The notes under the pieces: generated by a model
What the model was told of the DNA's origin: nothing
Seen by the model: the letters and a program-made list of their open reading frames with translations, nothing else
Database searches by the model: none
Made by a program: the position numbers and the translations under genes
In this document: positions 9,718 through 49,375 of the stretch, piece by piece
Numbering within the stretch: the stretch's first letter is position 1
Layout of the letters: every line of letters begins with the position of its first letter
From: a virus
Taxonomy: Duplodnaviria > Caudoviricetes
IMG/VR virus record: IMGVR_UViG_3300025707_000003
Location: 96,001-160,000 of that record
Strand: one strand, 5' to 3'
Length of the DNA stretch: 64,000 bases

Positions 9718-10107
9718 TTACTTGTTGAAGTCAGTGCGAACACTACGAGGAATTAAAAGTACTTTGCGAAGAAGCAACTCAAGCTGACGAACTTCACCCC
9801 TACCTTCTCCTTCTACACAAAACAGCTCAAGCTCTGTTAGCCCATTAGAAGCAGTGAAACCAATGAAGTGCTTATAGTCATACTTTATCTCCCAATCGCC
9901 CTCTTCTGCAATTAAGATTTTATTAGACCAACTTTCGATGTAACTAGTGATGTCCTTAAAGTCTCCTCGCTTACGAACATAATAATCACCCTCTGAACCT
10001 TCGTGGATGTGACCCTCAAGCTCAAAAACAAGAGAGGAAGATTGTTTCTCAAGACGAGCGATTCTTAGCTCAAGTTCATTAATTATTTCTGATGCTGATC
10101 TTTTCAT
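9718..10107 (-). CDS. Tag-family protein 1 (MKRSASEIINELELRIARLE) with unknown cargo
   Basis: Shared 20-aa N-terminal tag. It starts 2 nt after tag protein 2. Confidence 0.8.
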   Translation of the reverse strand: MKRSASEIINELELRIARLEKQSSSLVFELEGHIHEGSEGDYYVRKRGDFKDITSYIESWSNKILIAEEGDWEIKYDYKHFIGFTASNGLTELELFCVEGEGRGEVRQLELLLRKVLLIPRSVRTDFNK

Positions 10108-26837: not shown

Positions 26838-27044
26838 ATGAGTGCTAAATCCTTTGAAGAAGCCGTAAGAACAACTCAACCTGTCATTTATGTAGGAGTT
26901 GAGCGTCAAGAGGCTAAGGGCTTCAATAAAGTAGTCCTCATACAAGAGAATAAAGAAGGGCTACAGACAACCGAACACCACATGACAGGTGATGTCTCTG
27001 TTCAAATGGTGAATGGTGTCTTAAAGGTTTATGTGAAAAGCTAA
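26838..27044 (+). CDS. Hypothetical protein
   Basis: AGGAG RBS, preceded by a degenerate cassette sequence ctcgttattaagtcatct (26762-79). Confidence 0.65.
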   Translation: MSAKSFEEAVRTTQPVIYVGVERQEAKGFNKVVLIQENKEGLQTTEHHMTGDVSVQMVNGVLKVYVKS

Positions 27045-27078
27045 AGCAGATCTGCCGCTATGTCAGATGTGTGTAAAC

Positions 27079-27516
27079 TCAGATGTGTTCCTCAAGCATT
27101 GCAGGGAGACTCCAGATCTCGTCAGAGATTTTGCCTAACTTACGATCACGAAAGCAGAGTCTTTCCAACTTACTTGCGTCTGCGTGATCCATATCCTCAA
27201 GATCAGTTGTGTACACCCGATAAGAGACCTCAGAGACACCCTCATCATCACAGATGCTAAGATCATTATCGTCACAGATCTGTTTGACCCTAGACTCAAA
27301 CTCATTTTGTAGTTCATCCGCTTCCATAAAATAACGGTGTATGAGAGCATGACTCTCTTCCTCTGACCAAACATCATAAATCCACTCATCAGCATCGAAG
27401 TGTCTGTAAGCGTTGCGACTGAGACCAGCCTTCTTACCAGAGGATTTCGTCTTCTTTTCAAGTCTTGCAATTCTCATTTCAAGGTTATTAATGATTTCTG
27501 TTGCTGATTTTCTCAT
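27079..27516 (-). CDS. Tag-family protein 5 with acidic cargo
   Basis: MRKSATEIINNLEMRIARLE; cassette upstream at 27517-27577. Confidence 0.8.
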   Translation of the reverse strand: MRKSATEIINNLEMRIARLEKKTKSSGKKAGLSRNAYRHFDADEWIYDVWSEEESHALIHRYFMEADELQNEFESRVKQICDDNDLSICDDEGVSEVSYRVYTTDLEDMDHADASKLERLCFRDRKLGKISDEIWSLPAMLEEHI

Positions 27517-27573
27517 AAAGGTACTCCATAGGTTTGAGGTTAATAAGATCACTTAATAACGAGAATAGATAAA

Positions 27574-28863
27574 CTACAAAAGATCTGCGGCAATGTCAGA
27601 TAGCGTAGATCTCTCTGACTTATGTAAACTCACACACGCAAATAAAGGTTGACCCAACATACGCTCAATCACATACACAAGACCATTAGATTGCTTTGTG
27701 AGGTAAGGGTGATCAATCTGATAGGGATCACCTAAGAGAACTACTTTAGTTCCCTCAGCCGCTCTTGTGATGATTGATTTGATTTCATGCTTGGTGAGAT
27801 TCTGAGCTTCGTCAATAATCATAAAGGCTTGTTTAAGTGAGCGACCCCTAATGGAGTGGATTGGTTGGATCTCTATCTGATTCTTTTCAAGGAAACCTTC
27901 TTTAGTACCCATCTCTGCACCCATCGGACCAGCGTCCCACATTGGGTTGATCTGATCTAGGTTGTCAAAAAAGCTCTGCATCCAAGGCTCTAGTTTCTCG
28001 GAGAGAGAACCAGGCAAGAACCCGATGCCTTGACCGACATCAACTACAGGTTTAGAGAGTAGGATACGCTGATATGTATGAGCTTGCTCAAGAGCGGCAG
28101 CTAATGCAAGGAAGGTTTTGCCAGTACCTGCTTTACCTAAGAGACACACCAACTCAATGTCGGGATCTAAAAGAGCATCAAGAGAGGCTCTTTGTTCAAG
28201 ATTTCTAGGTTTGGCTTTTTCGGTACGCACTTTGTCTACATTAAAGAGAGATCCCTCTTTGTGTTGGAAAAGATGTTTTTTCTCACCTGGTGCAACAAAC
28301 CAAACATACTGATTTTCATGGAAATCTTCATCAAACTCATGTGGAAGTCTTACAGCACCTTGCCAATATGACTTAACCAATTGATTCATAAACTTTACAT
28401 CAGGTACAAAACCTTTTAACCCTATACCAGAGAGGGTGTCCAGACTTGTGTCCGAAGTGTAGTCAGAAGAATTAACCCCCACAGATTCACATATGATGCG
28501 TAGGTTGATATCTCTTGAAACGAGAGTCAGATCGTATTCGTCTTTGAGGTGAATAGCAGTTTGTAGAATAAGTAAATCTACATACCTAATCTGATTAGCT
28601 CGGTCTAAAGAACTTATGCTGAGTCCTCCTTCGTGTGATACAACTTTAACCTTATCTTCTGTTTGAAGTTTAAGGATAAGATTAGAGGCTTGACGAGCGA
28701 GATGTGCTACATGAGATTTCTCTCGTTTGGGTGTGTCTTTGAGAACATCAAGCTCCATGATTACATAGATTGGGATGAGGACTTCGGTATCATCTTCAAA
28801 AGAGGTCATAGAGGTAGGATCGTGTATTAACACACTAGTATCTAGCAAAACAGCCTTTGTCAT
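27574..28863 (-). CDS. phoH: PIN-PhoH (PhoH2/YlaK-like) ATPase
   Basis: N-terminal PIN (LLDTSVLIHDP..SRDINLRI), GKAGTGKT, RGRSL, IIDEAQN and LGDPYQID. Confidence 0.92.
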   Translation of the reverse strand: MTKAVLLDTSVLIHDPTSMTSFEDDTEVLIPIYVIMELDVLKDTPKREKSHVAHLARQASNLILKLQTEDKVKVVSHEGGLSISSLDRANQIRYVDLLILQTAIHLKDEYDLTLVSRDINLRIICESVGVNSSDYTSDTSLDTLSGIGLKGFVPDVKFMNQLVKSYWQGAVRLPHEFDEDFHENQYVWFVAPGEKKHLFQHKEGSLFNVDKVRTEKAKPRNLEQRASLDALLDPDIELVCLLGKAGTGKTFLALAAALEQAHTYQRILLSKPVVDVGQGIGFLPGSLSEKLEPWMQSFFDNLDQINPMWDAGPMGAEMGTKEGFLEKNQIEIQPIHSIRGRSLKQAFMIIDEAQNLTKHEIKSIITRAAEGTKVVLLGDPYQIDHPYLTKQSNGLVYVIERMLGQPLFACVSLHKSERSTLSDIAADLL

Positions 28864-34741: not shown

Positions 34742-35428
34742 ATGTCAATCCCCATACCAGCGGGTGCTACAAGAGTTCAAGTAGAAGATGAGTATGGTAA
34801 ACTAATTTGGCGAAAGCCCTCCGAAATCCTAGACACCGACACAATACGCATTAACTTTAAGACAGGCGAACCTTACGCTATGTTTGGTAAGCCAGGTCAA
34901 CCAAGTTCTAATAGTGCAAATGTCAAACAAACACCTGTAAATACACCTTATATACATCCATCAAACCCACAGGCAAACATCAATCAACTACAGCAACGCA
35001 AACAAGCGAAACTAAATAGCGATGCTGTATTTGATCAGACAAAGAAAAATGCCGATTCCTCTGAGGTATTGACTAATGTATTAGTTGGTTTAGCAGAAGA
35101 GTCTGCCTCACTTGCTTTTGAAAGAGAAGAAGCAGAGCGTAGGGGTGAATCCACATCTCAGATTTCTCTAAGGAGAGTAAATGCCTTAAAAGCTGTGGGT
35201 GACACTTGGATCAAGAAAAAAGAGATAATGTCGTCTAAATCCTTAGACTTAGAGTCTAAAGCTTTTAGGCAAGTTTTTGGACACATCGCTGAAACATTCC
35301 GTAAAGCGTGTGATGAAGCAGGGGTAAGACCCGAACTAGCAGAGAGTGTTTTTGCTACCTTCGGAAAGATGGTAGATGACCCAGATTGGATGCAAGACGC
35401 TAAAAAGGCTATGGAGCGTGAGAAATAA
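34742..35428 (+). CDS. Putative terminase small subunit
   Basis: Position only: helical protein coupled to TerL by a TAATG overlap. Confidence 0.4.
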   Translation: MSIPIPAGATRVQVEDEYGKLIWRKPSEILDTDTIRINFKTGEPYAMFGKPGQPSSNSANVKQTPVNTPYIHPSNPQANINQLQQRKQAKLNSDAVFDQTKKNADSSEVLTNVLVGLAEESASLAFEREEAERRGESTSQISLRRVNALKAVGDTWIKKKEIMSSKSLDLESKAFRQVFGHIAETFRKACDEAGVRPELAESVFATFGKMVDDPDWMQDAKKAMEREK

Positions 35429-38400
35429 TGAGTTTATCTTCGGTTGCGATCTCTGCAAGTGCTAGGGCAGGTAAGAAATCAGAAAAAGACGCAGACATCA
35501 TAGAATTTGTGGAAGCATCTTGGGGATTAAAGATGACTTTGTTTCCCGTACAAAGGGTAATCCTTAAAGCACATTATGGTCTTGAGCTTGATGATGAAAA
35601 GACATTTGAAATATCTGATTGGACTAGGACCAAAATAGAGACACATACCGAGAAATCATATCTTCGTAAGATATATGAAGATGGTCGTTGCAATATAGGT
35701 GAGGTAATACCTGGGAAACAACGAAGAGAAATGATCCTCTCTATTGGTCGTAGGTCTGGTAAATGTGTGACAGGTGAGACACTCATACCCACAAATAAAG
35801 GATTGGTTCGGATTGACTCTTTAGGTGATCCCAACGGGGATGAAATACAACCACTACAAGTTAATGTCGCACAAGAGTGTGGGACAACCTCTAGGTCGGC
35901 TTATTTTTATAACGGAGGTGTTAAACCTACTAAATACCTAGAGACATTCTGTGGGTACAGGATCGAGGGTACAGGAAATCATCGCATTAAAGTGATGACT
36001 CCCGAATGTAAGATCGAATGGAAGTATCTTGAAGAGATTGAAAATGGTGATGTGGCTTGCATCAATAGATCCAGTCAGCTTTGGTCTAATGACTATGTGG
36101 ATGTAAGTCAGCACCACACTGAAAAAGATCAACCTAAATATCTTGATGAAACTTGGGGAGAGTTATTAGGATTATTAGCAGGTGACGGTCACTGGACAAA
36201 TGAGAAAGCAGTTGGTATAACAGTAGGTGAGAAAGCCTTTGAGCCTTACCTTATGTCTTTATTTCGTAACCTCTTTGGGAAAGTCTCTTATCACCCAGAT
36301 AAGCGTAAGGTTGATGTCGGTCAAGTGTTAGCCTACGGGAAAGACCTAAGAAAGTTCCTCGATAACTTAGGTTGGGTAATCGACTGCACGACTAGAACTA
36401 AAAGTGTTCCACATACAGTCCTTAAATCCCCTATGTCTGTAGTATGTGCTTTCCTTAGAGGACTCTTTGAAACAGATGGTTCGGCTTATGACTCTGCCAT
36501 TACTCTTTCTACTGCTTCTTATCAACTCGCACATGAAGTACAACTTTTATTACTAAATGTCGGAATCGTATCCAATCTCTCTAAAAGCAACCGAGAAGAT
36601 AGAACAGAACATCGAATAAGAGTCAAAGGATCAAAGTCTAAGAGACTTTTCGCTAGACACATAGGGTTCATATCAGAAAGAAAGAAAAAGTGCCTTGAAG
36701 GGGTATTATCAACAGTCTCTTATAGGGGAGGTAATGAAGGAGTACCATTCTTTTACGAGTATGTTGAACGACTAAAGAAGTTCCACCCCTATCTCAAACA
36801 TGACTTAAGTCCTACAACTAAATACACACCCTATTGGAAGATCAAGAAGGTCGCAGACCATTCGGGTTTAAATCAGACCACAAAGTCTCAACTATATAAC
36901 CTCATCGACCGCGATTACTTTTTCGACCCTATCATCAAAGTAGAACAGCGTGAAGCTCATGTCTTTGATCTGAATGTGCCTAATGGATCAATGTTTATCG
37001 GCAATGGGTTCACTAACCATAATACTACGATTTCAGCCTGTATCGCCGCTTATGAAACCTACAAGTTGATCAAAAAAGAAAACCCACAAAAGTTTTATGG
37101 ACTACCCGCAAGTAATAATATCCAAATCATCTCGGTCGCCACAGATAAAGACCAAGCAGGTTTGCTTTACCAAGAAGTATCAGGTCATTATCGCTCCTGT
37201 GCTTTTTTTGGCCCCTACACTGCAAATAATACTCTCTCCTATGCCAGATTCCAAACACCAGCAGATGTAGAGAAGTATGGTAGATACATTGAGAACCAAG
37301 ACGCTAAAGCTACTCTTAAAATCACCTTTAGATCTTGTGTCGCTAAAGGTCTTCGTGGTGCAGGTAATATATGCGTCATTCTTGATGAGGTTGCTCACTT
37401 TACTGAAACGGGTCAATCGGGAGCAGAGGAAGTATATAACGCTGTTGTACCATCGACATCTGCTTATTCAGCTAAAGACCCAGAGAACCCAACGATCCCT
37501 ATTGGTGAAGTAGAGGGTCGTATCATTCTTATCTCTTCACCTTTGGGTAAACAAGGTCTGTTCTATAACCTCTTTATGATTGGTATGGGTGGTGGTCGGG
37601 CAGGAGATAATATCCTCGCTGTCCAAGCACCTACTTGGGAAGTAAATCCCACTGTACCTGCACAAGAGTTCGAGAAGCATTACCTCAAGAATGCGGCAGT
37701 CTTCTTCACAGAGTATGGTGGGGAGTTCACAGACAGAACAAGAGGGTGGATTACTGACGAGCGTGATCTATTATCTTGTATTGACCCTCAGTTAAAACCA
37801 CAAATGGGAGCACCAGCTAGAAAACCGCACTTTATGGGAATCGACTTGGGTCTTGTAGGTGACGGAACCGCAATTGCTATTGGACATCTCGAAGGTGAAG
37901 AAATCGTTGTAGATCTCGTAGCTCAAATTAAAGCAGGAGAGGGTATCTATCACGATAAAGAACGATTGGAGTTTGATGATGTCGCGGATTGGGTACTAGA
38001 GTTTACAAAGAAGTTTTATATTCAAGAGGGAATGTTTGACCAATGGGCAGGGATTCCTTTCCAACAGGCACTTGAAAAGCGAGGTCTAAAAAACCTCAAA
38101 TCTACTAATATGACTAAACAGATCACCTCACAAATGTATCAGAACTTTAAGGACATGATGTGGGATCAAAAGGTCAAACTCTACAATCGACCTAACTATG
38201 AAACAGAAGGACATGAACCGTATATCCAAGAACTCTTAGAGCTTCAACAAACGGTGCATGGTAAACACCTCATAACTGTCGAAGCTCCACAAACTAAAGG
38301 TAAACATGACGATATGTCGGACGCAATTGTACGCATGGCATGGCTCGCCTCTAATAACATCGGCAAAGGGCGATACTTCGCTTCAGGGTCTAAAGGAAGT

Positions 38401-38553
38401 AGACAATTCAGACACCCTATGGCAGGTGGTAAAACCTTTGCTACAGGTGGAAGGTATACAGGTCGAAGTGGGTCTGACGCTAAAAGGGTTGCACCTAAAT
38501 CACCTCGCTATAGCCTAAGAGACTCTATCAATGGTCGCTTTGGGAAAAAGTGA
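35428..38553 (+). CDS. terL: Terminase large subunit containing an intein
   Basis: Walker A GRRSGK|T split by the intein, Walker B VILDEVAH, ILISSP coupling motif, nuclease GIDLG and HDDMSDA. Confidence 0.92.
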   Translation: MSLSSVAISASARAGKKSEKDADIIEFVEASWGLKMTLFPVQRVILKAHYGLELDDEKTFEISDWTRTKIETHTEKSYLRKIYEDGRCNIGEVIPGKQRREMILSIGRRSGKCVTGETLIPTNKGLVRIDSLGDPNGDEIQPLQVNVAQECGTTSRSAYFYNGGVKPTKYLETFCGYRIEGTGNHRIKVMTPECKIEWKYLEEIENGDVACINRSSQLWSNDYVDVSQHHTEKDQPKYLDETWGELLGLLAGDGHWTNEKAVGITVGEKAFEPYLMSLFRNLFGKVSYHPDKRKVDVGQVLAYGKDLRKFLDNLGWVIDCTTRTKSVPHTVLKSPMSVVCAFLRGLFETDGSAYDSAITLSTASYQLAHEVQLLLLNVGIVSNLSKSNREDRTEHRIRVKGSKSKRLFARHIGFISERKKKCLEGVLSTVSYRGGNEGVPFFYEYVERLKKFHPYLKHDLSPTTKYTPYWKIKKVADHSGLNQTTKSQLYNLIDRDYFFDPIIKVEQREAHVFDLNVPNGSMFIGNGFTNHNTTISACIAAYETYKLIKKENPQKFYGLPASNNIQIISVATDKDQAGLLYQEVSGHYRSCAFFGPYTANNTLSYARFQTPADVEKYGRYIENQDAKATLKITFRSCVAKGLRGAGNICVILDEVAHFTETGQSGAEEVYNAVVPSTSAYSAKDPENPTIPIGEVEGRIILISSPLGKQGLFYNLFMIGMGGGRAGDNILAVQAPTWEVNPTVPAQEFEKHYLKNAAVFFTEYGGEFTDRTRGWITDERDLLSCIDPQLKPQMGAPARKPHFMGIDLGLVGDGTAIAIGHLEGEEIVVDLVAQIKAGEGIYHDKERLEFDDVADWVLEFTKKFYIQEGMFDQWAGIPFQQALEKRGLKNLKSTNMTKQITSQMYQNFKDMMWDQKVKLYNRPNYETEGHEPYIQELLELQQTVHGKHLITVEAPQTKGKHDDMSDAIVRMAWLASNNIGKGRYFASGSKGSRQFRHPMAGGKTFATGGRYTGRSGSDAKRVAPKSPRYSLRDSINGRFGKK
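35764..37023 (+). mobile_element. 420-aa intein with a LAGLIDADG homing endonuclease
   Basis: Starts CVTGETLI, ends FIGNGFTNHN followed by Thr(+1). Contains block B TGNHRI and motifs LLGLLAGDG and FLRGLFETDG. Confidence 0.95.
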
Positions 38554-38562
38554 TTACAACGA

Positions 38563-38997
38563 TTAGTAGTTTTCTTGAGCCTCTTTACCCGCTTTGTACT
38601 CATAAAGCAGTTCACTTCGATCAGTCAAACCGACTTTCCATGTGTATTCTAAGTTATTTAAAGAAACACCATTCATGCCCATGTAGTAAACGATTTCTAT
38701 GATAGCTCCGTCCAAGTCTTTGATCATAGACTCTTGGTTGAGGTATCTTGAAAGTATCTCGATGTTAAGGATGAAATTTTCTTTATCTTCTTCCGAACCC
38801 TTTACCATTCTTTCCTTAGCAAAGTTTAAAAGTTGTTTGGTGTATGTATTGCGATGGTCAAGACCCAAGAAATAATCCTCGTGCTTACTCTCCATCATCT
38901 CTAAGAAATGTTTAGGGGTGAGTCTTGCAGACTGACGCTCTAAACGAGCAATCCTCATCTCAAGGTTTCTTATTATTTCTGAAGCTGATCTTTTCAT
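38563..38997 (-). CDS. Tag-family protein 6
   Basis: MKRSASEIIRNLEMRIARLE; the start is reassigned from 39060. Confidence 0.8.
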   Translation of the reverse strand: MKRSASEIIRNLEMRIARLERQSARLTPKHFLEMMESKHEDYFLGLDHRNTYTKQLLNFAKERMVKGSEEDKENFILNIEILSRYLNQESMIKDLDGAIIEIVYYMGMNGVSLNNLEYTWKVGLTDRSELLYEYKAGKEAQENY

Positions 38998-39025
38998 AAG
39001 AGTTTCCCCACTTTGTTTAATGTAA

Positions 39026-39056
39026 CACTTATTGACTATCATAAATAAACTACAAA
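39026..39056 (+). repeat. 31-bp perfect direct repeat, copy 1 (contains a class B motif)
   Basis: cacttattgactatcataaataaactacaaa, identical at 39568-39598. Confidence 0.92.
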
Positions 39057-39098
39057 TCAAATGGGGGGTGCATTTGATGATTGGTGGAAGTCTTAAGA

Positions 39099-39533
39099 CT
39101 ATTCGTTGCTTCTAATTCTTTTAAAGAAGTTAGGGTTCTTCATAATCAAGCTGGCGATCCCTGCTGACTCAATCTCAATTTGATAAGCCACGAGACCAGT
39201 ATCTCGTAAACTTCCACTCTCAACCTCGTAGTCAATGCGACAGTTGAATACAAAATAATCACCTCCACCCATCCAAGACAAATCAAAATCACCAGGCACT
39301 TTTCCTTTAGCTATAATCTGATCCATCATCTTATCTTTGCAGTAAGAGAAAATGGCTTGTAGATCATTTACACCCTTAACAGACTTTTTGAAGTCATCCT
39401 TCTCCATATCATGCTCTACAGATACAACACGAGCATTAAAGGATGAATCATTATCCCAACCTGCCGATTTGTTTTCAAGACGAGCAATACGACCCTCAAG
39501 GTTTCTAATCACTTCACTAGCTGATCTTCTCAT
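39099..39533 (-). CDS. Tag-family protein 7
   Basis: MRRSASEVIRNLEGRIARLE. Confidence 0.8.
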   Translation of the reverse strand: MRRSASEVIRNLEGRIARLENKSAGWDNDSSFNARVVSVEHDMEKDDFKKSVKGVNDLQAIFSYCKDKMMDQIIAKGKVPGDFDLSWMGGGDYFVFNCRIDYEVESGSLRDTGLVAYQIEIESAGIASLIMKNPNFFKRIRSNE

Positions 39534-39567
39534 ATCATTTCTCCATTTGGTTTAGGGTTAAAGAGAT

Positions 39568-39598
39568 CACTTATTGACTATCATAAATAAACTACAAA
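39568..39598 (+). repeat. 31-bp perfect direct repeat, copy 2
   Basis: Identical to 39026-39056. Confidence 0.92.
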
Positions 39599-39628
39599 CT
39601 TTAGGGTTTGTGATGCAGATCTTCTCAT
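39581..39628 (-). pseudogene. 'Empty' tag unit MRRSASQTLKFVVYL*
   Basis: It has an intact class B motif, an ATGGAGA RBS and ATGAGAAGATCTGCATCA, but runs directly into the next cassette and stops after 15 codons. Confidence 0.75.
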
Positions 39629-39645
39629 AATGGTTCTCCATTTGT

Positions 39646-39719
39646 TTAAGAATAAAGAGATCTCCTATGGATAACCTATAAATAAACTATCAATAGTTCT
39701 GGTTCTCCCAAGTCGCTGT
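39646..39719 (+). repeat. 74-bp perfect direct repeat, copy 1
   Basis: ttaagaataaagagatctcctatggataacctataaataaactatcaatagttctggttctcccaagtcgctgt, identical at 40825-40898. Confidence 0.92.
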
Positions 39720-39786
39720 CTTGTATCGCAACCCCCCTAAAAACACAATCAATTCTAGATTCGGGAAAAAGTAGGAGGGGGGGGTA

Positions 39787-40806
39787 TTAACCTTGTGGTC
39801 TCCAAGACCTTATCTGTTGGTTTAACTTTGTTATTAGATCTTTGAAAACGCTTATACTTCTTTCTTTTTTACGCTGATGTATAGGGTCTGATGGTTGTCT
39901 CCTCTCTAACTCTTCGATCTCCTCATTTACTTTACGCTTAACATTTTTTAGACCCTCTGGAGATGTTTCTATTGGGTGTTCAAATGAACCATAACAAGAA
40001 ATTGTTTCCCTCCACCCATGTTGTATTCTATAACCATGCTTAAATAACTTACCATCTCTTCTTTTGGCATAAACTCCCCAACACATAGGGCAAGTACCTT
40101 TATTTTGTTCCTCTAAAGTCTGTTCGGGTTCGGTTTGCGGAGCGAGTCTTAAAAAGTCTTTTGCGTCTTCAACTGCACCCTCTTTGACTGCAAACTTTGT
40201 AATCTTAGTTAGATCAAAGTTCTCTAAATCTAGTTTGTAAGGTGAAATTTTTATCGCCACCTTTTTACCGTTTTTAGAAGTGGTTACTTTTTTGATACCA
40301 ACAAAAGCGTCCTCTAAATAAAACTTCCACCATTCTTTTCTTTTCTCATAAAACATACTGGTCAAAATAATCGAGATACGACCAAAAGTAGGTTTACTTG
40401 GTTTTCTATCTACAAAGTCTACATAGGGGATTGCTTTTTTAATCCTTTCAATCTCTTCTTCGTACTTTTGAAATGCCTCTTCAAATGTAGGGTATTCATC
40501 TACCGATACTAGTATAAAATAAATGCTTTGACCTAGCTTCTCAAAATCCTCAAAGGCAGTCTTGTGTTTGAGATTATCATTTGCATCCTGTGCCTCTTTC
40601 ATTTCAAAGTTAAAGCCTAAAGCTTCAAGCACCTCTTGTAAGATGTTAAAATTACCTTTTTTCGGCATTGGGGTTCTTCTTGAGTGGTTAGCCAAAGCTA
40701 ACATCATACTTTTAGCTTCATTGCTCAATGAAGATGTAGCTTGTTTTTCAAGACGGGCAACTCTCATCTCAAGCTCTCTGATGACTTCACTTGCTGTTCT
40801 TCTCAT
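39787..40806 (-). CDS. Tag-family protein 8 with a C-terminal Cys/His motif
   Basis: MRRTASEVIRELEMRVARLE; TCPMCW..KHGY..CYGS. Confidence 0.8.
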   Translation of the reverse strand: MRRTASEVIRELEMRVARLEKQATSSLSNEAKSMMLALANHSRRTPMPKKGNFNILQEVLEALGFNFEMKEAQDANDNLKHKTAFEDFEKLGQSIYFILVSVDEYPTFEEAFQKYEEEIERIKKAIPYVDFVDRKPSKPTFGRISIILTSMFYEKRKEWWKFYLEDAFVGIKKVTTSKNGKKVAIKISPYKLDLENFDLTKITKFAVKEGAVEDAKDFLRLAPQTEPEQTLEEQNKGTCPMCWGVYAKRRDGKLFKHGYRIQHGWRETISCYGSFEHPIETSPEGLKNVKRKVNEEIEELERRQPSDPIHQRKKERSISVFKDLITKLNQQIRSWRPQG

Positions 40807-40824
40807 AGGTCATTCTCCTGTGGG

Positions 40825-40898
40825 TTAAGAATAAAGAGATCTCCTATGGATAACCTATAAATAAACTATCAATAGTTCTGGTTCTCCCAAGTCGCTGT
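40825..40898 (+). repeat. 74-bp perfect direct repeat, copy 2 (includes the last codons of the 40869 gene)
   Basis: Identical to 39646-39719. Confidence 0.92.
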
Positions 40899-42245
40899 AC
40901 GACCACGCTTCTCCAACGCATCAGATACCGTAGCCTTATCAGAGTCCATAGGGTAAGCACTGTCGGGTGTAACAGGATAAACAGCATCTGCTCTAGCTGT
41001 GTAGGTATCTCTCTGTGGCCAGTAACCATAACGAGTCTCAGGCCATGACACAGGAACTCCCTCAATAGGGAATCTATATCGTATGTCACCACTATCCAAA
41101 TACGCTATGTTGAAATGCTGTTGAAGAACATTACCTCTGTTCGATGGCATATTAACAGCACCACATGAATACCGTTCATTATTAGGTTTAACTATAAAGT
41201 CTTTCTGACTCACAATAGGACTAGGGCCGATCCACACCTCGTAGGAATGTTCCTTACGCCTACCACGATCTTCTTGACTAATCCTACGCTCACTGTCATT
41301 AGGGCCGACTATGATGTCATAAGGTCCATCATAACCTCCCTTAATACCTGTGCCGAAACAAATCGTACAAAGACTGTCTGGTTGCTTCGCATATTTAAGG
41401 GTCTCTTTATTGAAGGAGGTACAATAACAAGGTATCCCTGCTATCCTACGAGTAAATAACTTAACCCGTTCCCCCCCTTGTTCAAGTATCCAGTTATTAC
41501 GCCTTATCCCTTCTCTCCACATATAATCTACACGCTCAAGCTCTCTATCTGAGAAGGGCTTGCAATGCTCTAAAGGGGTTTCATGTAATACGCTTGTTTT
41601 TGGGTCTTCTGCTACTGTCGCTATACGATAGAAATCACGCTTATCTGTACCAAGTCTTAAGCGACTCTCTGGGTCATAAGCAATATAACTTATAGTGACC
41701 ACCGTATTGTCATCTATCGAAGGAGGTAAGCTATCTTCGGTTAAAGTGATGGCATCGGGTTTGGGTCTACCTGTAAAGAATAAAGTAACCTCACCAAACT
41801 CACCAAGCACTCTCGATGTGGGTACGATAACACCGTTAATCATTACCACAACATCTCTTGGTGAATCAGCAGGGTCATTGATGCTATTTTGTCTCGCTAT
41901 CGGGTACTCCACTTGAAACCGATAAGGATCTTCACCTTGATCCCCTTTAGAAATCCACTTGTCTGCTGGGATGACTTCATCATTAACTGCCCATGTGTCT
42001 ATTCGATCTCTGTATATTGTTCCACCGATAGGTGTGATGTTCACCCTACGATAAGGGCCACGATCAGAGTTGCCCGATCTGTATATGTTCACACCACGAA
42101 CAATCCAACCCTCATTTCCATGTAGGATTGATGGGTTATCCCAATGGACATCTATCTCACCCTTAGCGAAAGGGGAGACAGCACTCGTATTTCTTGGTGG
42201 TACAGGCCAAGGACTTCTACTGTCGTACCAACCATGTTGTGCCAT
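40869..42245 (-). CDS. Putative virion structural protein (FN3-like N-terminus, CxC..CxxC motif)
   Basis: IDVHWDNP..GVNIYRS..GPYRRVN and PCYC..LCTICFGTG. Confidence 0.5.
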   Translation of the reverse strand: MAQHGWYDSRSPWPVPPRNTSAVSPFAKGEIDVHWDNPSILHGNEGWIVRGVNIYRSGNSDRGPYRRVNITPIGGTIYRDRIDTWAVNDEVIPADKWISKGDQGEDPYRFQVEYPIARQNSINDPADSPRDVVVMINGVIVPTSRVLGEFGEVTLFFTGRPKPDAITLTEDSLPPSIDDNTVVTISYIAYDPESRLRLGTDKRDFYRIATVAEDPKTSVLHETPLEHCKPFSDRELERVDYMWREGIRRNNWILEQGGERVKLFTRRIAGIPCYCTSFNKETLKYAKQPDSLCTICFGTGIKGGYDGPYDIIVGPNDSERRISQEDRGRRKEHSYEVWIGPSPIVSQKDFIVKPNNERYSCGAVNMPSNRGNVLQQHFNIAYLDSGDIRYRFPIEGVPVSWPETRYGYWPQRDTYTARADAVYPVTPDSAYPMDSDKATVSDALEKRGRTATWENQNY

Positions 42246-42246
42246 A

Positions 42247-42288
42247 ATAATCTCCCATGTAAGCGATATTTACTTATAGGGAGATTAT
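42247..42288 (-). promoter_or_regulatory. 10-bp perfect hairpin over the SD of the 42245 gene
   Basis: ataatctccc pairs with gggagattat. Confidence 0.6.
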
Positions 42289-42315
42289 AAATGACTTATT
42301 ATTCTCTCACTTCAA

Positions 42316-42834
42316 TTAATCATCGCCCTCAAAAGTGATCTCTACCTTTTCTTCTCCACCCTCGTCCTCCGCATCTTGTTTGGGGTCTATCCATTGTTTG
42401 ACGACACCTTTGAGTTTCACTTGCTCTTCAGTCGTAGTTTTAATAACTTTCTCTCCATGAAAAAGAGAAAGTTTGTCAATGACTGCGGATTGAAGCTCAA
42501 ATATTTGTTCTCTTAAAAGTTGCATCTGTATTTGTGCATCTCTCAACCTAGCGATTAATGCTTCCCTATCCCCATTAGCAGACGCAAGTTTATCTTTGAG
42601 TTCTTCTACTTCGGAAGGGTCTCTACCACTAGCGATGGCTAACATAGATGAGATACTGCCTGTGAGCATACCTATGATCCCAATAAGTATATCTCTGTTT
42701 TTCTCTACTATTTCATGCTTCGCTAAGAACCATATCAAACCTATGATCAAGAGCATGAAGACTACAGAAGCCCACCAACCTCTTTTCGCCTTTTCAGATT
42801 GAGTGAACTGTTTATTTGTTTGTTTTTTAGACAT
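42316..42834 (-). CDS. Two-TM membrane protein with a coiled coil
   Basis: Two hydrophobic helices followed by a heptad-rich segment. Confidence 0.65.
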   Translation of the reverse strand: MSKKQTNKQFTQSEKAKRGWWASVVFMLLIIGLIWFLAKHEIVEKNRDILIGIIGMLTGSISSMLAIASGRDPSEVEELKDKLASANGDREALIARLRDAQIQMQLLREQIFELQSAVIDKLSLFHGEKVIKTTTEEQVKLKGVVKQWIDPKQDAEDEGGEEKVEITFEGDD

Positions 42835-42843
42835 CGTAAAACC

Positions 42844-43686
42844 CTAGAACAGATTCTTAAAGAACTCTGAAATGAAAGAAATGAATGCGTCATACTTGGG
42901 CATATGGTAAGGAAGTCCGATCAGAGATCTTGCAACAGGTCTTGTAGATAGTTGAAAAATAATATGAAGCCAGAACAAACACGCTATAAACCCAGCCCTC
43001 CAAAAGACATAGAGAACCCAGTCTTTCAAGACTCTATCTCTTGCTCTTTTCTTAATGTATTTAGGCCCACCTAGTCTTTTTACTTTCTCAGATCCTAGAG
43101 GAGGCTGTAGCGATTCAATGGTTTCACCAACCGCATATATTTCTTGTGGTTCTTTCACCCCTTTAAATTTATACATACCTACACAAGCAAATCGGGTGCT
43201 TTTTGGTGTGTGCATATTCGTTCTGTTTCGAGTGGCTAACATTGCCTCCTTTGTGAGGAGAACTTGACCTTTTTGACAAAGAGACATTGTTCTAGCGGCA
43301 ATGTTTTTTGAGAGTCCTTCAAGTTCGACTCTCTTAGCTCCAGCTCCAACATAGACATCATCTTGTTCTACTTCAATGATTTTACCCCAGTGTATACCGA
43401 TACGAGTATTGATCTTTATTTTTGGTGGGATTGTTTTTTGATAAGCGAGAGCAAAGTTAACTGCATCTACAGGTCGGTCAAAAGACAATAGAAAACCATC
43501 AGAACGATCTATCTCTCTGCCTTCATGCCGATAAACAAGATTTCTAGCCATACGATCATGGATTTGAAACCACTGAGCCGCCACCTTAGCTCCCACCCTT
43601 TGAACGAAAGCAGTAGACCCTATCAAATCTAAGAGAACGATAGCTAAGTATCGTTCTTTCATAGTAATATCATGATCAAAGGGCAT
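42844..43686 (-). CDS. Class III nucleotidyl cyclase with a C-terminal TM segment
   Basis: LLDLIGST, REIDRSDGFLLSF, RIGIHWG, LEGLSKNIAAR and GQVLLT. Confidence 0.82.
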   Translation of the reverse strand: MPFDHDITMKERYLAIVLLDLIGSTAFVQRVGAKVAAQWFQIHDRMARNLVYRHEGREIDRSDGFLLSFDRPVDAVNFALAYQKTIPPKIKINTRIGIHWGKIIEVEQDDVYVGAGAKRVELEGLSKNIAARTMSLCQKGQVLLTKEAMLATRNRTNMHTPKSTRFACVGMYKFKGVKEPQEIYAVGETIESLQPPLGSEKVKRLGGPKYIKKRARDRVLKDWVLYVFWRAGFIACLFWLHIIFQLSTRPVARSLIGLPYHMPKYDAFISFISEFFKNLF

Positions 43687-44666: not shown

Positions 44667-45893
44667 ATGGCTAAAGCCAAATCTAAAGCATCTAAATCTT
44701 CAAAAGTGAAGTCTGCCCTAAAAGGGGTTGATCTCGCAAGTGTCCTCAACGATGCTGAAAAGGGCATGAAAGACTCGGCTCTTGTAGAGCTTGATCTTGA
44801 TTCTCTCTCTAATTCTATGCCCCACATCAGTACAGGATCTGTCGCCCTTGACTACCTCATTGGGGGCAAAGAAAATGCTCAAGGTGTTCGTCCTTGTCCT
44901 GGTATTCCAAGAGGTCGTATAACAAATGTTTATGGTTTGGCTGGTGCAGGTAAAACCACGATTGCTTTACAGACAGCGGCCTCCGTATGTAATGACGAAG
45001 GAGGGACTTGTGTCTATATTGACTGGGAGAATGAGGTTGAACCTAGATACGCTCAAATGCTCGGTGTTCCTGTTACAGATAAGTCTAAGTTCATGCTTCT
45101 CCAACCAGAAACTTTGGAGCAAGGGTTCAAACTCATGGTTAAGTTCGCATCGGCAGGTGTAGATCTTATCGTGGTTGACTCTGTAGGTGCAGGCGTTCCC
45201 GAAAAGATGTTTGCTAAAGAAGCAGGAGAACAAGCCGCAGTTGGTCTTTTGGCTCGTCAATGGTCGCAATTCCTACCCCTGTTCAAGCGTGTTATCGCAG
45301 ATGCTAATACAGGCGTTATCGGTATCTCTCAGTTGCGAGAAGCGATTGGTGGTATGGGTGGATTTGGATCTGGACCTCAGAGAAAACCACAAGGTGGTCA
45401 AGCGTGGAAGTATTATTCATCTCTACAGATTATGCTTCGTGTGGTCGGCAAAGATCGTGGTAAAGAATGGGATGGTCTACAGAACAAGATGATCGAAACT
45501 GTTAAAGGAAATATCGTTCGTGCTACACTCGATAAATGTAAAGTTTCTGACGCTTACAAACACGAGTGTCAGTTTTACCTTATGAATGGGATCGGTGTAG
45601 ACAATGAGCGTACAGTGTTAGACCTTGCGATTTCTGTTGGAGTCGTTAAGAAGGGTGGTGCTTGGTATACATGGGCTGATCCAACCACAGGTAGTGAACA
45701 TAAGGGTCAAGGTCTTGATGGCTTCCGAAAGTTGCTTCCCGATAGTTGGCTAGATTCCATGTTCAATCAAGTTCGTGGTTACCTCACCTCTAAGAAAAAC
45801 GAAGAAGAACCCGAAATGAAGGAAGAGGTATCTAGCAATCTCGGTGAGGATGGTCAAAAAGCTATGGACGAACTTGACGATCTCTTTAAGTAG
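44667..45893 (+). CDS. recA: RecA recombinase
   Basis: ISTGSVALD, PRGRI, GLAGAGKTT, YIDWEN, IVVDSV, ISQLRE, GGQAWKYYSS and KKGGAWY. Confidence 0.93.
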   Translation: MAKAKSKASKSSKVKSALKGVDLASVLNDAEKGMKDSALVELDLDSLSNSMPHISTGSVALDYLIGGKENAQGVRPCPGIPRGRITNVYGLAGAGKTTIALQTAASVCNDEGGTCVYIDWENEVEPRYAQMLGVPVTDKSKFMLLQPETLEQGFKLMVKFASAGVDLIVVDSVGAGVPEKMFAKEAGEQAAVGLLARQWSQFLPLFKRVIADANTGVIGISQLREAIGGMGGFGSGPQRKPQGGQAWKYYSSLQIMLRVVGKDRGKEWDGLQNKMIETVKGNIVRATLDKCKVSDAYKHECQFYLMNGIGVDNERTVLDLAISVGVVKKGGAWYTWADPTTGSEHKGQGLDGFRKLLPDSWLDSMFNQVRGYLTSKKNEEEPEMKEEVSSNLGEDGQKAMDELDDLFK

Positions 45894-47909: not shown

Positions 47910-48173
47910 ATGGATCTTGAACAACTGGTTAATAAAAAAATCGACATTGAAAGACGAAGGGAGCGTTTGCTAGGTAAACTAGAAGTCGCTAAGTCAAGTC
48001 TTTTAGAGCTTGATAAGAGGTTAGTCGAAAGGGGTATTAACCCCGACACTCTTGAAGAAGAAATAAATCGCCTTAAAGCTGAAAGGCAAGAGGCAATCAC
48101 TAAACTTAATGAAGCTCTGTTGGATGCAGAGCAAGTCATCACACGCATTGAAAGTCGAGTAGACGGTATATGA
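47910..48173 (+). CDS. Coiled-coil protein
   Basis: Heptad-rich 87-aa ORF with an AAGGAG RBS. Confidence 0.7.
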   Translation: MDLEQLVNKKIDIERRRERLLGKLEVAKSSLLELDKRLVERGINPDTLEEEINRLKAERQEAITKLNEALLDAEQVITRIESRVDGI

Positions 48174-49375
48174 AAATCACAGTATCAGCACAAGATTTAA
48201 AGGAAACTCTCTCAATCGCCCAAAACACATTGGGTGCAAACCAAGACATCACCTCACACTTTATCTTCACCATTGAGAATGCTGGAGTGAGCGTTATGGC
48301 TTGTTCTCCCCCTCGTCAGTTTTCAAAGATCCCTGTCATCGGTGCTACTGTTCAAGACGGAGGTTCTTTTTCTATTGAGGGGAAGCGTTTAATCTCAGCA
48401 ACTAATGTTATGACAGGTGTTGTAGAGATTGAGTATAATGAGGAGGATAAAGAAGTTTCGTTAAAAGGTAGTGAGGGAGAAGCAACTACAATCTCGCTCG
48501 ACCCAGAGTCCTTTCCCCCTTGGGTTGAAAAGTTCGGTCAAGCAACTAAAGTAGGAGAGATTTCTGCTTCCATTCTATATGATACGCTCAATACCAATAG
48601 ACAGTATGTATCACAAGATGATAGTCGTAGACCAGAGCTTGCTATGATCTTGATTGAAGACGGAAAAGCCATTGCCTGTGATGGATTCATGCTTAATATG
48701 TCTCGACATGATGATCTTCAAGGAATGAATGTGAAGGTTCACTATAAGGACATTACACCATTGATGAAGTTCCTCAAGGCGTATGATGGAGGTATGATTG
48801 AGGTTCTTAGTGGAGGACAAGCTACCTTCTTTAAGGCTGAGGACAGTGCTTTATTTGCTGTGATGGACTTGCCATATACTTACCCTCCCATCACACAGCA
48901 ATATGCTGATGCCTTTAACTGGACTCCTCGTAGGGTTTGGATGTTGTCTAAGGAAAACTTTATGAATGGTCTTACCTTCTTATCAGCCTTTGCTGATAAG
49001 ACTAACTTTAAGGTTTCTTTTAAAGACCCAGAAGATGAGGCTTTATTACCTCCAAGTCTTGAGATGAAGTCGTCTAATAGTAAGACTATTTCGTACAATC
49101 TTGAAGTGCCTCTTTTTGAGGACGCTGAGAAGCCACTAGAAGAGATCACAGACCTCTCTCACTTGATGTATGCTACTCGCCTTAAAGAAAAAGGTAAAGG
49201 TGATGACATCGCCACTTTCGATTTTAACTATCTTTCGGTCAAAAAAGCAGTGGAAATATATAATGATAACATCGTCTTTGGATGTTCTCAAGAGGGCAAT
49301 AAAGGTTATATGCTCTTTAAGTCAGACCAAGACTCTGGTGTACAGACTGTTTCTATTATAGGTTGGATGCTTTAA
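48170..49375 (+). CDS. dnaN: DNA polymerase III beta sliding clamp-like protein
   Basis: MKITVSAQDLKETL, PESFPPW, SQDDSRRPELAMI, IACDGFML and FNY; length about 400 aa. Confidence 0.75.
   Translation: MKITVSAQDLKETLSIAQNTLGANQDITSHFIFTIENAGVSVMACSPPRQFSKIPVIGATVQDGGSFSIEGKRLISATNVMTGVVEIEYNEEDKEVSLKGSEGEATTISLDPESFPPWVEKFGQATKVGEISASILYDTLNTNRQYVSQDDSRRPELAMILIEDGKAIACDGFMLNMSRHDDLQGMNVKVHYKDITPLMKFLKAYDGGMIEVLSGGQATFFKAEDSALFAVMDLPYTYPPITQQYADAFNWTPRRVWMLSKENFMNGLTFLSAFADKTNFKVSFKDPEDEALLPPSLEMKSSNSKTISYNLEVPLFEDAEKPLEEITDLSHLMYATRLKEKGKGDDIATFDFNYLSVKKAVEIYNDNIVFGCSQEGNKGYMLFKSDQDSGVQTVSIIGWML

What the first reader, a model, noticed from the sequence alone, without database searches (positions are those of the whole stretch)
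38563..40898. Tandem cassette array with perfect direct repeats and an 'empty' tag-only unit
Seen: four tag units lie head-to-tail, each with its own promoter cassette. A 31-bp perfect repeat (39026-56 and 39568-98) brackets gene 39099-39533. A 74-bp perfect repeat (39646-719 and 40825-898) brackets gene 39787-40806 and duplicates the last codons (TATWENQNY*) of the upstream structural gene. The unit at 39581-39628 encodes only MRRSASQTLKFVVYL*. Inference: these are footprints of recent duplication, insertion and cargo deletion by recombination between cassettes, an accordion-like locus that gains and loses cargo without an integrase.
Basis: partly seen in the sequence, partly recalled or inferred. 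Interest (0 to 1): 0.82.

Follow-up and report, generated by a model that had tools for sequence, protein, structure and literature searches.

The report
Recombining tagged-gene cassette array in phage
Between two conserved genes of an uncultured marine giant phage lies a fast-changing row of small genes, each with the same promoter, leader and 21-residue N-terminal tag, and close relatives gain, lose and swap these genes by recombination, much as phage T4 does at its internal-protein loci.

Summary

Seven close relatives (structural gene 95–98% aa identical) plus the window show five gene contents between that gene and the terminase gene. These are none, one unit, a different unit, a mixed set, and 3+1 units here. 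Breakpoints fall inside the cassettes. One relative's cassette is a hybrid of two window cassettes. Seawater metagenomes hold two locus forms in one sample, and the conversion endpoint differs between strains.

Copies of the upstream gene's 3' end (30, 49 and 73 nt) bound inserted units at this hot spot. Similar copies occur at two other sites. This points to one homologous join in the cassette plus one illegitimate join.

The tag is under peptide-level selection (dN/dS about 0.2). It heads about 30 unrelated ORFs per genome and 1,119 protein clusters in public data. Its function is unproven. My best guess, about 50%, is a virion-targeting and processing signal.

The closest known analogues are the T4 internal-protein loci and PeSL cassettes, so this is a new variant of a known kind. 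First-stage notes had already flagged the tag elsewhere in this genome.

The parts
40869..42245 (-). Conserved 458-aa gene S, a putative neck or tail structural protein. Its stop codon marks the upstream edge of the hot spot.
   Evidence: ORF. It is 28% identical to the 'minor tail protein' gp322 of Tunturiibacter phage Tunturi_5, which sits between head-tail connector, tail terminator and sheath genes. 31 relatives were found in IMG/VR.
40825..40898 (-). Left copy of the perfect 74-bp repeat. It comprises the last 30 nt of S (40869-40898) plus the 5' part of the promoter/leader cassette (TAGTTTATTTAT at 40857-40868).
39787..40806 (-). Tagged cargo G3 (339 aa), of unknown function, with a Cys/His-rich C-terminal region.
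   Evidence: Only 3 homologues were found among 5.8 billion proteins, and all carry the tag. One of them also lies directly after S in Tara contig L052. No Pfam hit. The AF2 model is poor (pLDDT 58.5) and has no PDB fold match.
39720..39786 (-). 3' flank of G3, with a C7/G7-stemmed hairpin (-17 kcal/mol). Its downstream end is the illegitimate junction with the second copy of the S 3' end.
   Evidence: No similar sequence was found in any fetched relative.
39646..39719 (-). Right copy of the 74-bp repeat, made of an orphan copy of the S 3' end (S'') plus the cassette 5' part.
   Evidence: In runs X14 and X16 this copy matches the left copy over all 86 nt (39640-39645 changed), so the recombination or conversion endpoint differs between strains.
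39581..39628 (-). Tag-only unit. A full cassette and ATG are followed by 6 tag codons and 9 unrelated codons that run into the next promoter (MRRSASQTLKFVVYL*).
39534..39598 (-). Cassette of G2 (promoter 39583-39594, leader TAAGTGATCTCTTTAACC, RBS GGAG). It contains the 31-bp repeat copy 39568-39598.
39099..39533 (-). Tagged cargo G2 (144 aa), an ORFan.
   Evidence: No relative was found in IMG/VR.
38998..39056 (-). Cassette of G1 (promoter 39041-39052). It contains the 31-bp repeat copy 39026-39056.
38563..38997 (-). Tagged cargo G1 (144 aa), an ORFan. It is the only unit shared with L002 and L003.
35428..38553 (+). Terminase large subunit gene, convergent with the array, carrying a LAGLIDADG intein (about aa 113-532). 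It marks the downstream edge of the hot spot.
   Evidence: phrog_17415 at 1e-17 and phrog_9 at 6.5e-14. LAGLIDADG_3 and Intein_splicing domains.
27035..27601 (-). A second example of the same footprint in the window. Tagged gene 27079-27516 is flanked by the PhoH gene 3' end plus promoter start (27568-27601) and a decayed copy of that sequence (27035-27068, 79%).

Best explanation
The interval between the converging structural gene S and the terminase gene is a hyperplastic 'safe-harbour' site in an uncultured marine giant phage of roughly 370 kb.

It holds self-contained expression units. Each unit has:
- the phage's own promoter motif (TAGT-N3-TTTAT), which starts at or right after the preceding stop codon
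- a conserved 5' leader with an RBS
- a 21-23-residue N-terminal tag, MRRSASE(I/V)IxxLExR(I/V)ARLE(K/R)QA
- an unrelated small cargo gene

The roughly 60-130 nt of promoter, leader and tag are shared by about 30 genes per genome. The phage's general recombination machinery (a UvsX-like recombinase is encoded 4 kb away) can therefore exchange, delete and insert units by homologous crossovers within these cassettes.

New units are sometimes captured by one homologous join in the cassette plus one illegitimate join. The illegitimate join leaves a duplicate of the last 30-75 nt of the upstream gene. In the window this gave S-c-G3-hairpin-S''-c-(tag stub)-c-G2-c-G1.

The perfect 74-bp repeat marks a recent event. 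The tag-only unit is a unit that lost its cargo.

Shown here: the anatomy, the hypervariability, breakpoints in the cassettes, coexisting variants, and peptide-level selection on the tag.

Inferred: the order of events, and the role of circles or template switching.

Tag function is also inferred, at about 50%. I read it as a virion (prohead) targeting and processing signal like the T4 capsid-targeting sequence. That would make the cargos packaged or injected accessory proteins under arms-race turnover.
For: - **Anatomy and repeats:**
- **Variable locus contents:** five different contents in the window plus seven near relatives whose flanks are 84-91% nt identical.
- **Hybrid cassette:** the L002 cassette is the 5' half of the window's S-adjacent cassette joined to the 3' half of the window's G1 cassette.
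- **Population polymorphism:** in runs X12 and X17 the L002-type junction dominates (depth 22-28) beside the window type (4-8). In X14 and X16 the right repeat copy has a different conversion endpoint.
- **Recurrent duplicates of the upstream gene's 3' end:**
  - window S'', 30 nt, perfect
  - L005 and L008 S'' copies, about 73 nt and 49 nt, 86-96% identical
  - PhoH'', about 34 nt, 79%
  - a unit at G001 280933
- **Genome-wide turnover:**
  - all 9 tagged genes of the window lie in synteny gaps against the complete relative G001, which is about 80% nt identical
  - none of their cargos has any tblastn match in G001
  - six swap or presence/absence sites occur in 64 kb
- **Cargos are unrelated:** only 2 paralogue pairs among 36, and Pfam domains in 3 of 36.
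- **Tag under peptide-level selection:**
  - it starts at Met1 in 144 of the 150 best database hits
  - dN/dS is about 0.2
  - invariant Arg15 uses 5 codons and Ser6 uses both codon families
- **Tag spread:** 12-31 tagged ORFs per relative genome, and 1,119 clusters at 50% identity in 1.84 billion representatives.
- **Separable second half of the tag:** xR(I/V)ARLE(K/R)Q(A/S) recurs internally, always starting at profile position 14-17, in 11 of 153 tag proteins. This is what a processing or docking site would do.
- **Precedents in the literature:**
  - T4 Ip proteins carry an N-terminal packaging signal and sit in polymorphic loci flanked by promoter-containing repeats (PMC12373910; PMC2839356, citing Repoila 1994)
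  - PeSL cassettes shuffle ORFans and form mini-circles without an integrase (PMC2839356)
  - 20- and 24-residue N-terminal propeptides are removed by the prohead protease in giant phage SPN3US (PMC10052503)
- **Recombinase nearby:** a UvsX-like recombinase at 44667-45893.
Against: - No direct evidence of excision, circles or the 1179-bp and 542-bp deletion forms. Logan k=31 contigs cannot detect recombination across a 74-bp repeat. In run X1 the depths of G3 and S are equal (33.6 and 33.3), so no large deleted subpopulation exists there.
- The direction of each event (gain or loss) is not resolved. S-c-G3 is also contiguous in the distant Tara contig L052 at 78.5% nt, so that adjacency may be old.
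- The virion-targeting reading has no proteomic support.
  - No prohead protease or capsid protein was identified.
  - The PF03420 search of G001 was negative, but its control was also silent.
  - The RLE(K/R)QA motif was not found in untagged proteins of the window such as structural proteins.
- The promoter motif also precedes non-structural genes, so expression timing is unknown.
- A two-heptad amphipathic helix could equally serve as an oligomerisation or docking element.
Confidence: 0.72

Rival explanations
1. A dedicated site-specific or nuclease-driven mobility system moves the units. Examples would be a homing-endonuclease-initiated double-strand break with repair, or an integron-like recombinase. 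General homologous recombination would not be the cause. The duplicated 3' ends of upstream genes would then be target-site duplications.
For: - Inserts sit exactly at stop-codon boundaries and are bounded by copies of the target's last 30-75 nt.
- A LAGLIDADG intein endonuclease lies in the adjacent terminase gene.
- An unchecked first-stage note reports another array built on copies of a LAGLIDADG gene's end.
Against: - Duplication lengths vary (30, 49, 73 and about 34 nt), unlike the fixed-length duplications of transposition.
- Crossover points within the cassette differ between strains.
- No integrase or transposase domain is present in the locus proteins.
- Units also sit at sites with no nearby endonuclease gene.
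Confidence: 0.12
2. The repeats are conserved because they function as promoter, UP-element or terminator sequences. The differences between relatives would come from ordinary illegitimate indels at a tolerant intergenic site, with the cassettes playing no causal role in recombination.
For: - The promoter motif is used genome-wide, also before untagged genes.
- The hot spot also accepts untagged genes, namely a pentapeptide-repeat protein and a GHKL ATPase in L005 and L008.
Against: - The duplicated segment includes 30 nt of coding sequence of S, which has no reason to be conserved as a second copy.
- Perfect identity over 74 bp contrasts with 84-91% identity of the flanks between strains.
- The L002 cassette is a hybrid, and the conversion endpoint is strain-specific.
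- Alignment breakpoints are repeatedly located in the cassette or tag.
Confidence: 0.08
3. The repeats and the tag-only unit are an assembly artefact, for instance a chimeric join of strains or a collapsed or expanded repeat in a metagenome assembly.
For: - The window comes from a metagenome in which strain variants of this locus coexist.
- Short-read graphs cannot resolve a 74-bp repeat.
- The exact window-type junction was not found in JGI metagenome contigs or IMG/VR.
Against: - Every unique segment and every repeat-flank junction is present at about 100% identity in eight runs from different studies and years.
- In X1 the repeat unit has about twice the depth of its flanks, and G1, G2, G3 and S have even depth.
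- Diverged, and therefore unassemblable-by-error, copies of the same kind of duplication exist in L005 and L008.
Confidence: 0.04
4. The array arose by tandem duplication of one ancestral tagged gene, followed by divergence into a paralogue family. On this view foreign units were never gained or lost.
For: Shared promoter, leader and tag. Two paralogue pairs exist among the tagged genes of G001.
Against: - G1, G2 and G3 show no detectable similarity beyond residue 24 and differ in length and composition.
- The tag DNA is saturated at synonymous sites, while the 74-bp repeat is perfect.
- Relatives carry different cargos at the same site.
Confidence: 0.04

Closest known systems
T4-type internal-protein (Ip) loci with the capsid-targeting sequence (Repoila et al. 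1994, as summarised in PMC2839356 and PMC12373910; Mullaney & Black 1996, cited in PMC10052503)
   Same: - Many unrelated small proteins share a short conserved N-terminal leader.
- Their genes sit in highly polymorphic loci.
- The genes are flanked by repeated promoter-containing elements of about 70 bp that can mediate shuffling.
- The cargo repertoire differs between close relatives.
   Different: - No sequence similarity to the T4 leader, and the tag is twice as long (21-23 aa against 10-11).
- The promoter type differs.
- There are about 30 tagged genes per genome at many sites, against 3 in two loci in T4.
- The phage is an uncultured marine giant phage of about 370 kb, not demonstrably T4-like.
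- Packaging and cleavage are unproven here.
PeSL (promoter-early stem-loop) mobile regulatory cassettes of RB49/phi1 and other T4-like phages (PMC2839356, PMC4122927)
   Same: - Repeated regulatory cassettes flank ORFans in hyperplastic regions.
- Indels and replacements between close relatives map to the cassettes, with crossovers between the promoter and the ATG.
- No integrase is involved.
- G/C-run hairpins are present after some units.
   Different: - Here the cassette extends into the coding region, as a conserved leader plus a peptide tag.
- The promoter is a phage-specific motif, not sigma-70-like.
- Stem-loops are not a constant part of the unit.
- Duplicated 3' ends of the upstream gene are an additional footprint.
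- Mini-circles were not tested.
Integron gene-cassette arrays
   Same: Tandem array of unrelated, individually mobile genes at a fixed platform. Gain, loss and reshuffling occur.
   Different: - No IntI integrase, attI or attC.
- Each unit carries its own promoter, so there is no single Pc.
- Exchange seems to use homology, not site-specific recombination.
Genomic accordions (poxvirus K3L; segmental amplification in T4, PMC9391042)
   Same: Copy-number change at a locus by recombination between short repeats in a virus with active recombination.
   Different: An accordion amplifies one gene under selection. Here the units are different genes, and no amplified copy is seen.
Short N-terminal propeptides of giant-phage head proteins (SPN3US gp45 and gp225, 20-24 residues; PMC10052503)
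   Same: Length and N-terminal position of a removable peptide on proteins destined for the head of a giant phage.
   Different: Those propeptides are not reported as a shared portable sequence. Cleavage here is only hypothesised.

Membership tests
T4-type Ip/CTS system | Short conserved N-terminal leader on otherwise unrelated small proteins | tested here: met
   36 tagged ORFs share only residues 1-23. The resemblance is by analogy only, since the sequence does not resemble the T4 leader.
T4-type Ip/CTS system | Genes lie in polymorphic loci flanked by repeated promoter-containing elements | tested here: met
T4-type Ip/CTS system | Leader directs encapsidation and is removed by the prohead protease | not testable with these tools
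   No virion proteome and no isolate. The only indirect hint is the internal recurrence of the second half of the tag.
T4-type Ip/CTS system | T4-like head-assembly genes (gp21-family protease) | tested here: inconclusive
   PF03420 was not found in the complete relative G001, but the control genomes were also silent.
PeSL cassettes | Sigma-70-like early promoter plus an adjacent stem-loop terminator as the repeated unit | tested here: not met
   The repeated unit is TAGT-N3-TTTAT plus leader plus tag. A strong hairpin occurs only after G3, and a weak one after G2.
PeSL cassettes | Indels and replacements between close relatives map to the cassettes in hyperplastic regions | tested here: met
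PeSL cassettes | Formation of cassette mini-circles during infection | not testable with these tools
   This needs inverse PCR or long reads. Logan contigs cannot show it.
Integron | IntI tyrosine recombinase with attI/attC sites and a common promoter | tested here: not met
   No recombinase domain in the proteins of the locus or its neighbours. Each unit has its own promoter.
Genomic accordion | Tandem copies of the same gene | tested here: not met
   G1, G2 and G3 are unrelated beyond the tag.

The most novel reading that the evidence does not exclude
The 21-23-residue tag is a portable virion-loading and processing signal. Its first half would do the targeting, and its second half, R(I/V)ARLE(K/R)QA, would be the protease or docking site. 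It would mark more than 1,000 otherwise unrecognisable families of packaged or injected effector proteins in a clade of marine giant phages. The promoter-leader-tag cassette would double as a recombination handle, a gene-capture system that equips any captured ORF for expression and delivery in one step.
Probability: 0.4. Interest if true: 0.8.

Novelty: new variant of a known kind. Interest (0 to 1): 0.6.

Why it matters
If the reading holds, cassette-mediated modular shuffling is not confined to T4-like coliphages. Until now it has been documented mainly for the T4 Ip loci and for PeSLs. Here it would be acting on a much larger scale in abundant, uncultured marine giant phages. About 30 units per genome turn over completely between genomes that are only about 20% diverged in DNA.

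The tag gives a simple sequence handle for cataloguing a large pool of fast-evolving accessory proteins. At least 1,119 clusters carry it, and they are prime candidates for anti-defence or host-takeover functions. The array in this window is a natural experiment with a recent insertion, a cargo-less stub and coexisting alleles in the sea. The recombination mechanism could be tested on it with long reads or PCR.

Tried and rejected
- **Whole genome of the window.** None is held. I used the complete relative G001 instead.
- **GenBank phages.** Only a 485-kb uncultured phage (50% aa in S) and Tunturi_5 (28% aa) match. There is no annotated close relative.
- **Cargo function.** Pfam and PHROGs give nothing for G1 and G2. 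G3 gets only unknown-function PHROGs. The AF2 model of G3 is poor (pLDDT 58.5) and has no PDB fold match at E<=0.001.
- **G2 and G3 in IMG/VR.** No relatives were found by pattern search.
- **Deletion or ancestral form.** I searched for 'S-repeat-tag stub' without G3 in JGI metagenome contigs and IMG/VR and found none. The positive control, the window-type junction, was also absent, so the negative result is uninformative.
- **Apparent 'joints' in the laid contigs.** Examples such as 38967->39615 carry unrelated letters between the two sides. They are tags of other loci, not deletion variants.
- **Shared cleavage motif in untagged proteins.** None was found in the window.
- **T4-type prohead protease family in G001.** No hit, and the control was silent.
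- **Literature search for the tag sequence.** It finds only the c-Jun leucine zipper and unrelated papers. A search for a described giant-phage leader found none.
Full report
**1. Observation**

- A 458-aa gene, S (40869-42245), ends ...TATWENQNY*.
- Immediately after its stop codon comes TAGTTTATTTAT, then a leader with GGAG, then an ATG at 40806. This ATG opens a 339-aa ORF, G3, that begins MRRTASEVIRELEMRVARLEKQ.
- After G3's stop there are 67 nt with a C7/G7 hairpin.
- Next comes a second copy of the last 30 nt of S plus the cassette. This is the perfect 74-bp repeat, 39646-39719 = 40825-40898. It extends to 86 bp at 95%, with its 4 mismatches clustered at 39640-39645.
- That cassette drives only MRRSASQTLKFVVYL* (39581-39628), whose last codons are already the next promoter.
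- Two further units follow: G2 (39099-39533) and G1 (38563-38997). Their promoters share a perfect 31-bp repeat, 39026-39056 = 39568-39598.
- The array ends 9 nt from the stop codon of the converging terminase large-subunit gene, 35428-38553. PHROG hits identify it as a terminase, and it carries a LAGLIDADG intein.

**2. Not an artefact**

- The stretch is found in at least 13 marine or seawater metagenome studies.
- Logan contigs from eight runs contain every unique segment at about 100% identity and break at the repeats, as expected for k=31.
- In run X1 the 74-bp unit has depth 60 against about 33 for its flanks.
- Short contigs cannot prove the linear order. However, diverged copies of the same kind of duplication in relatives (below) cannot be assembly errors.

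**3. What the cassette and tag are**

*Promoter and leader*
- The motif TAGT-N3-TTTAT lies 45-65 nt upstream of about 17 genes in the window, tagged and untagged. It usually starts at or directly after the upstream stop codon, so it is the phage's own general promoter type.
- Tagged genes also share a leader, TAAGTGATCTCTTTAACC..AAACAAATGGAGAA (6 matches against 0.08 expected by chance).

*How common the tag is*
- A tag profile finds 9 full tags plus the stub in the window, and about 30 in the complete 375.7-kb relative G001.
- Other relatives carry 27, 17 and 12 tagged ORFs. A more distant 436-kb relative carries none.

*Selection on the tag*
- Selection acts on the peptide. M1, A5, L12, E13, R15, L19 and E20 are invariant in 36 sequences.
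- R15 is written with five codons and S6 with both serine codon families. dN/dS is about 0.2, with dS saturated.

*The cargos*
- They are unrelated to each other.
- Only 3 of 36 have a Pfam domain: JmjC/Cupin_8, WGR and HAAS.

*Spread in public data*
- In 1.84 billion representative proteins the profile finds 1,119 clusters. In 144 of the best 150 the tag starts at residue 1.
- In 11 of 153 tag proteins a half-tag recurs inside the protein. It always starts at profile position 14-17 and reads xR(I/V)ARLE(K/R)Q(A/S). The second half is therefore a separable functional motif. That suits a processing or docking site better than a recombination scar.

**4. The locus in relatives**

IMG/VR holds 31 loci with an S homologue. 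Seven of them (L002-L008) are 95-98% identical in S protein and 84-91% in flanking DNA. Between S and the terminase gene they carry:

| Loci | Content between S and the terminase gene |
|---|---|
| L004, L007 | Nothing; the stops are 4-26 nt apart |
| L002, L003 | Only the G1 orthologue |
| L006 | One different 133-aa tagged cargo |
| L005, L008 | An untagged pentapeptide-repeat gene, a 311-aa tagged cargo and a reverse GHKL-ATPase gene |

- Alignment blocks end in the cassette or tag.
- The cassette of L002 has the 5' half of the window's S-adjacent cassette and the 3' half of the window's G1 cassette. This is exactly the product of a crossover between those two cassettes.
- In runs X12 and X17 this L002-type junction is the major form (depth 22-28), and the window type is minor (4-8) in the same sample.
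- In X14 and X16 the right-hand repeat copy carries TGTGGG where the window has ATTTGT at 39640-39645. The conversion or crossover endpoint within the cassette therefore differs between strains.
- A further tagged 125-aa gene is present just upstream of S in L005, L007 and L032 but absent in the window and L006.

**5. Turnover is genome-wide**

- The window is syntenic with G001 at about 80% nt identity. All nine tagged genes of the window lie in the synteny gaps.
- None of their cargos has any tblastn match anywhere in G001.
- Comparing positions gives six sites of swap or presence/absence in 64 kb. Two of them are sites where both genomes carry a tagged gene but with different cargo: window 24690 against G001 17121, and window 10793/10107 against G001 33971.

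**6. Footprint of insertion**

Copies of the upstream gene's 3' end bound inserted units repeatedly:
- In L005, two extra copies of the S 3' end (about 73 nt and 49 nt, 86-96% identical) bound the inserted units.
- In the window, the tagged gene 27079-27516 is flanked by the PhoH gene's end plus promoter start and by a 79% copy of that sequence.
- A unit at G001 280933 shows the same pattern.
- An unchecked first-stage note reports the same pattern with a LAGLIDADG gene's end just outside this window.

The duplicated lengths vary (30, 34, 49, 73 nt), which argues against a fixed-length target-site duplication. The simplest model needs two joins:
- One homologous join within the cassette. In the window this is at the end of the perfect repeat, just upstream of the RBS.
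- One illegitimate join from the 3' flank of the incoming unit back into the end of the upstream gene.

This could happen by template switching, or by integration of a circularised fragment through the short homology.

G3's closest homologue (61% aa) also follows S directly in a Tara Oceans contig, with S-c-G3 contiguous at 78.5% nt. A 44% homologue lies in a different context, after purA and IMPDH genes. The direction of the event in the window (G3 in, or the downstream units in) is therefore not resolved.

**7. Mechanism and function**

*Shown*
- Self-contained promoter-leader-tag units.
- Hypervariability.
- Breakpoints in the cassettes.
- Hybrid cassettes.
- Coexisting alleles.
- Recurrent duplicated upstream ends.
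- No recombinase domain in the locus.
- A UvsX-like recombinase nearby.

*Inferred*
- Recombination between cassettes by the phage's general machinery.
- Cargo loss in the tag-only unit.
- Possible circular intermediates.

*Tag function*
- My leading reading, at about 50%, is prohead or virion targeting with proteolytic removal, by analogy with three precedents:
  - the T4 capsid-targeting sequence (PMC12373910; PMC10052503, ref. 30)
  - the 20-24-residue propeptides of giant phage SPN3US (PMC10052503)
  - the behaviour of the half-tag described above
- The alternatives are a docking or oligomerisation helix and a stability or translation element.
  - The heptad pattern I9-L12-I16-L19 with R15/E20 would fit a coiled coil.
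  - RIARLE is also found in the c-Jun zipper.
- No capsid protein, protease or scaffold was identified, and the motif is absent from untagged window proteins.

**8. Comparison with known systems**

- The nearest analogues are the T4 Ip loci and PeSL cassettes.
  - T4 Ip loci: a leader motif on diverse injected proteins, in polymorphic loci flanked by promoter-containing repeats of about 70 bp.
  - PeSL cassettes: recombination between regulatory cassettes explains indels between RB49 and phi1, forms mini-circles and needs no integrase (PMC2839356, PMC4122927).
- The present system works like these but is not a member of either.
  - The promoter, leader and tag sequences are different.
  - The repeated unit extends into the coding region.
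  - The scale is about ten times larger.
  - The duplicated upstream-gene ends are an added footprint.
- Integron and 'accordion' memberships fail on their defining features.
- I found no paper describing this tag.

**9. Verdict**

- It is a new variant of a known kind of phage genome plasticity.
- The tag system is a larger finding that first-stage notes had already flagged elsewhere in this genome. It carries most of the potential importance, but its function remains to be shown.

Noticed in passing
window 35428-38553; L007 3255-7340: The terminase large-subunit gene carries a LAGLIDADG intein (about aa 113-532). In L007 the gene is 1361 aa, against 1041 aa in the window, because of an extra insertion of about 960 nt at window position 37194/37197. 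L008 has the same interruption of the alignment at that position. This is probably a second intein or homing element that is polymorphic between strains.
   Followed up: partly
window 42245-42316; L005 6395-6772, L007 1440-1817, L032 7567: A tagged 125-aa gene with its own cassette sits between the 170-aa membrane-protein gene and S in three relatives. It is absent from the window and L006. This is a second hot spot, on the other side of S.
   Followed up: partly
window 27035-27068 and 27568-27601: The PhoH-like gene's last about 25 nt plus the start of the promoter are repeated (79%) downstream of the tagged gene 27079-27516. This is the same insertion footprint as at the S locus. PhoH's TAG stop codon is also the first triplet of the promoter motif.
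   Followed up: yes
proteins P0005-P0008, P0011, P0024, P0030, P0045, P0053, P0145; G001 191203-191916: Larger tagged proteins contain an internal copy of only the second half of the tag, xR(I/V)ARLE(K/R)Q(A/S), between what look like separate domains. This is a candidate processing or docking site.
   Followed up: partly
runs X14 and X16 at window 39640-39645: A strain variant in which the right-hand repeat copy is identical to the left copy over 86 nt (ATTTGT changed to TGTGGG). This is evidence of gene conversion or a different crossover endpoint between the two cassettes.
   Followed up: yes
window 24690-25601; 10110-10793 and 9718-10107: One tagged cargo is a JmjC/Cupin_8 oxygenase. Two tagged genes at 9.7-10.8 kb form an operon in which only the first has the promoter cassette. 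G001 has different tagged cargos at both corresponding sites.
   Followed up: partly
window 42844-43686, 17924-19303, 27574-28863, 44667-45893, 48170-49375, 21480-22502: Auxiliary genes of the giant phage:
- a protein with an adenylate/guanylate-cyclase domain
- a GroEL-like chaperonin
- PhoH
- a UvsX-like recombinase
- a sliding-clamp-like protein
- a gene whose N-terminus looks like glutamine synthetase, which sits behind the same promoter motif
   Followed up: no
L005 8264-9097 and 10209-12152 (also L008): The same hot spot can hold untagged cargo. One gene encodes a pentapeptide-repeat protein, a possible DNA mimic. The other, on the opposite strand, encodes a 647-aa GHKL-type ATPase.
   Followed up: partly
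window promoters listed: The promoter motif TAGT-N3-TTTAT resembles the Bacteroidota -7 element TAnnTTTG (from memory). This may hint at the host phylum, but it was not tested.
   Followed up: no
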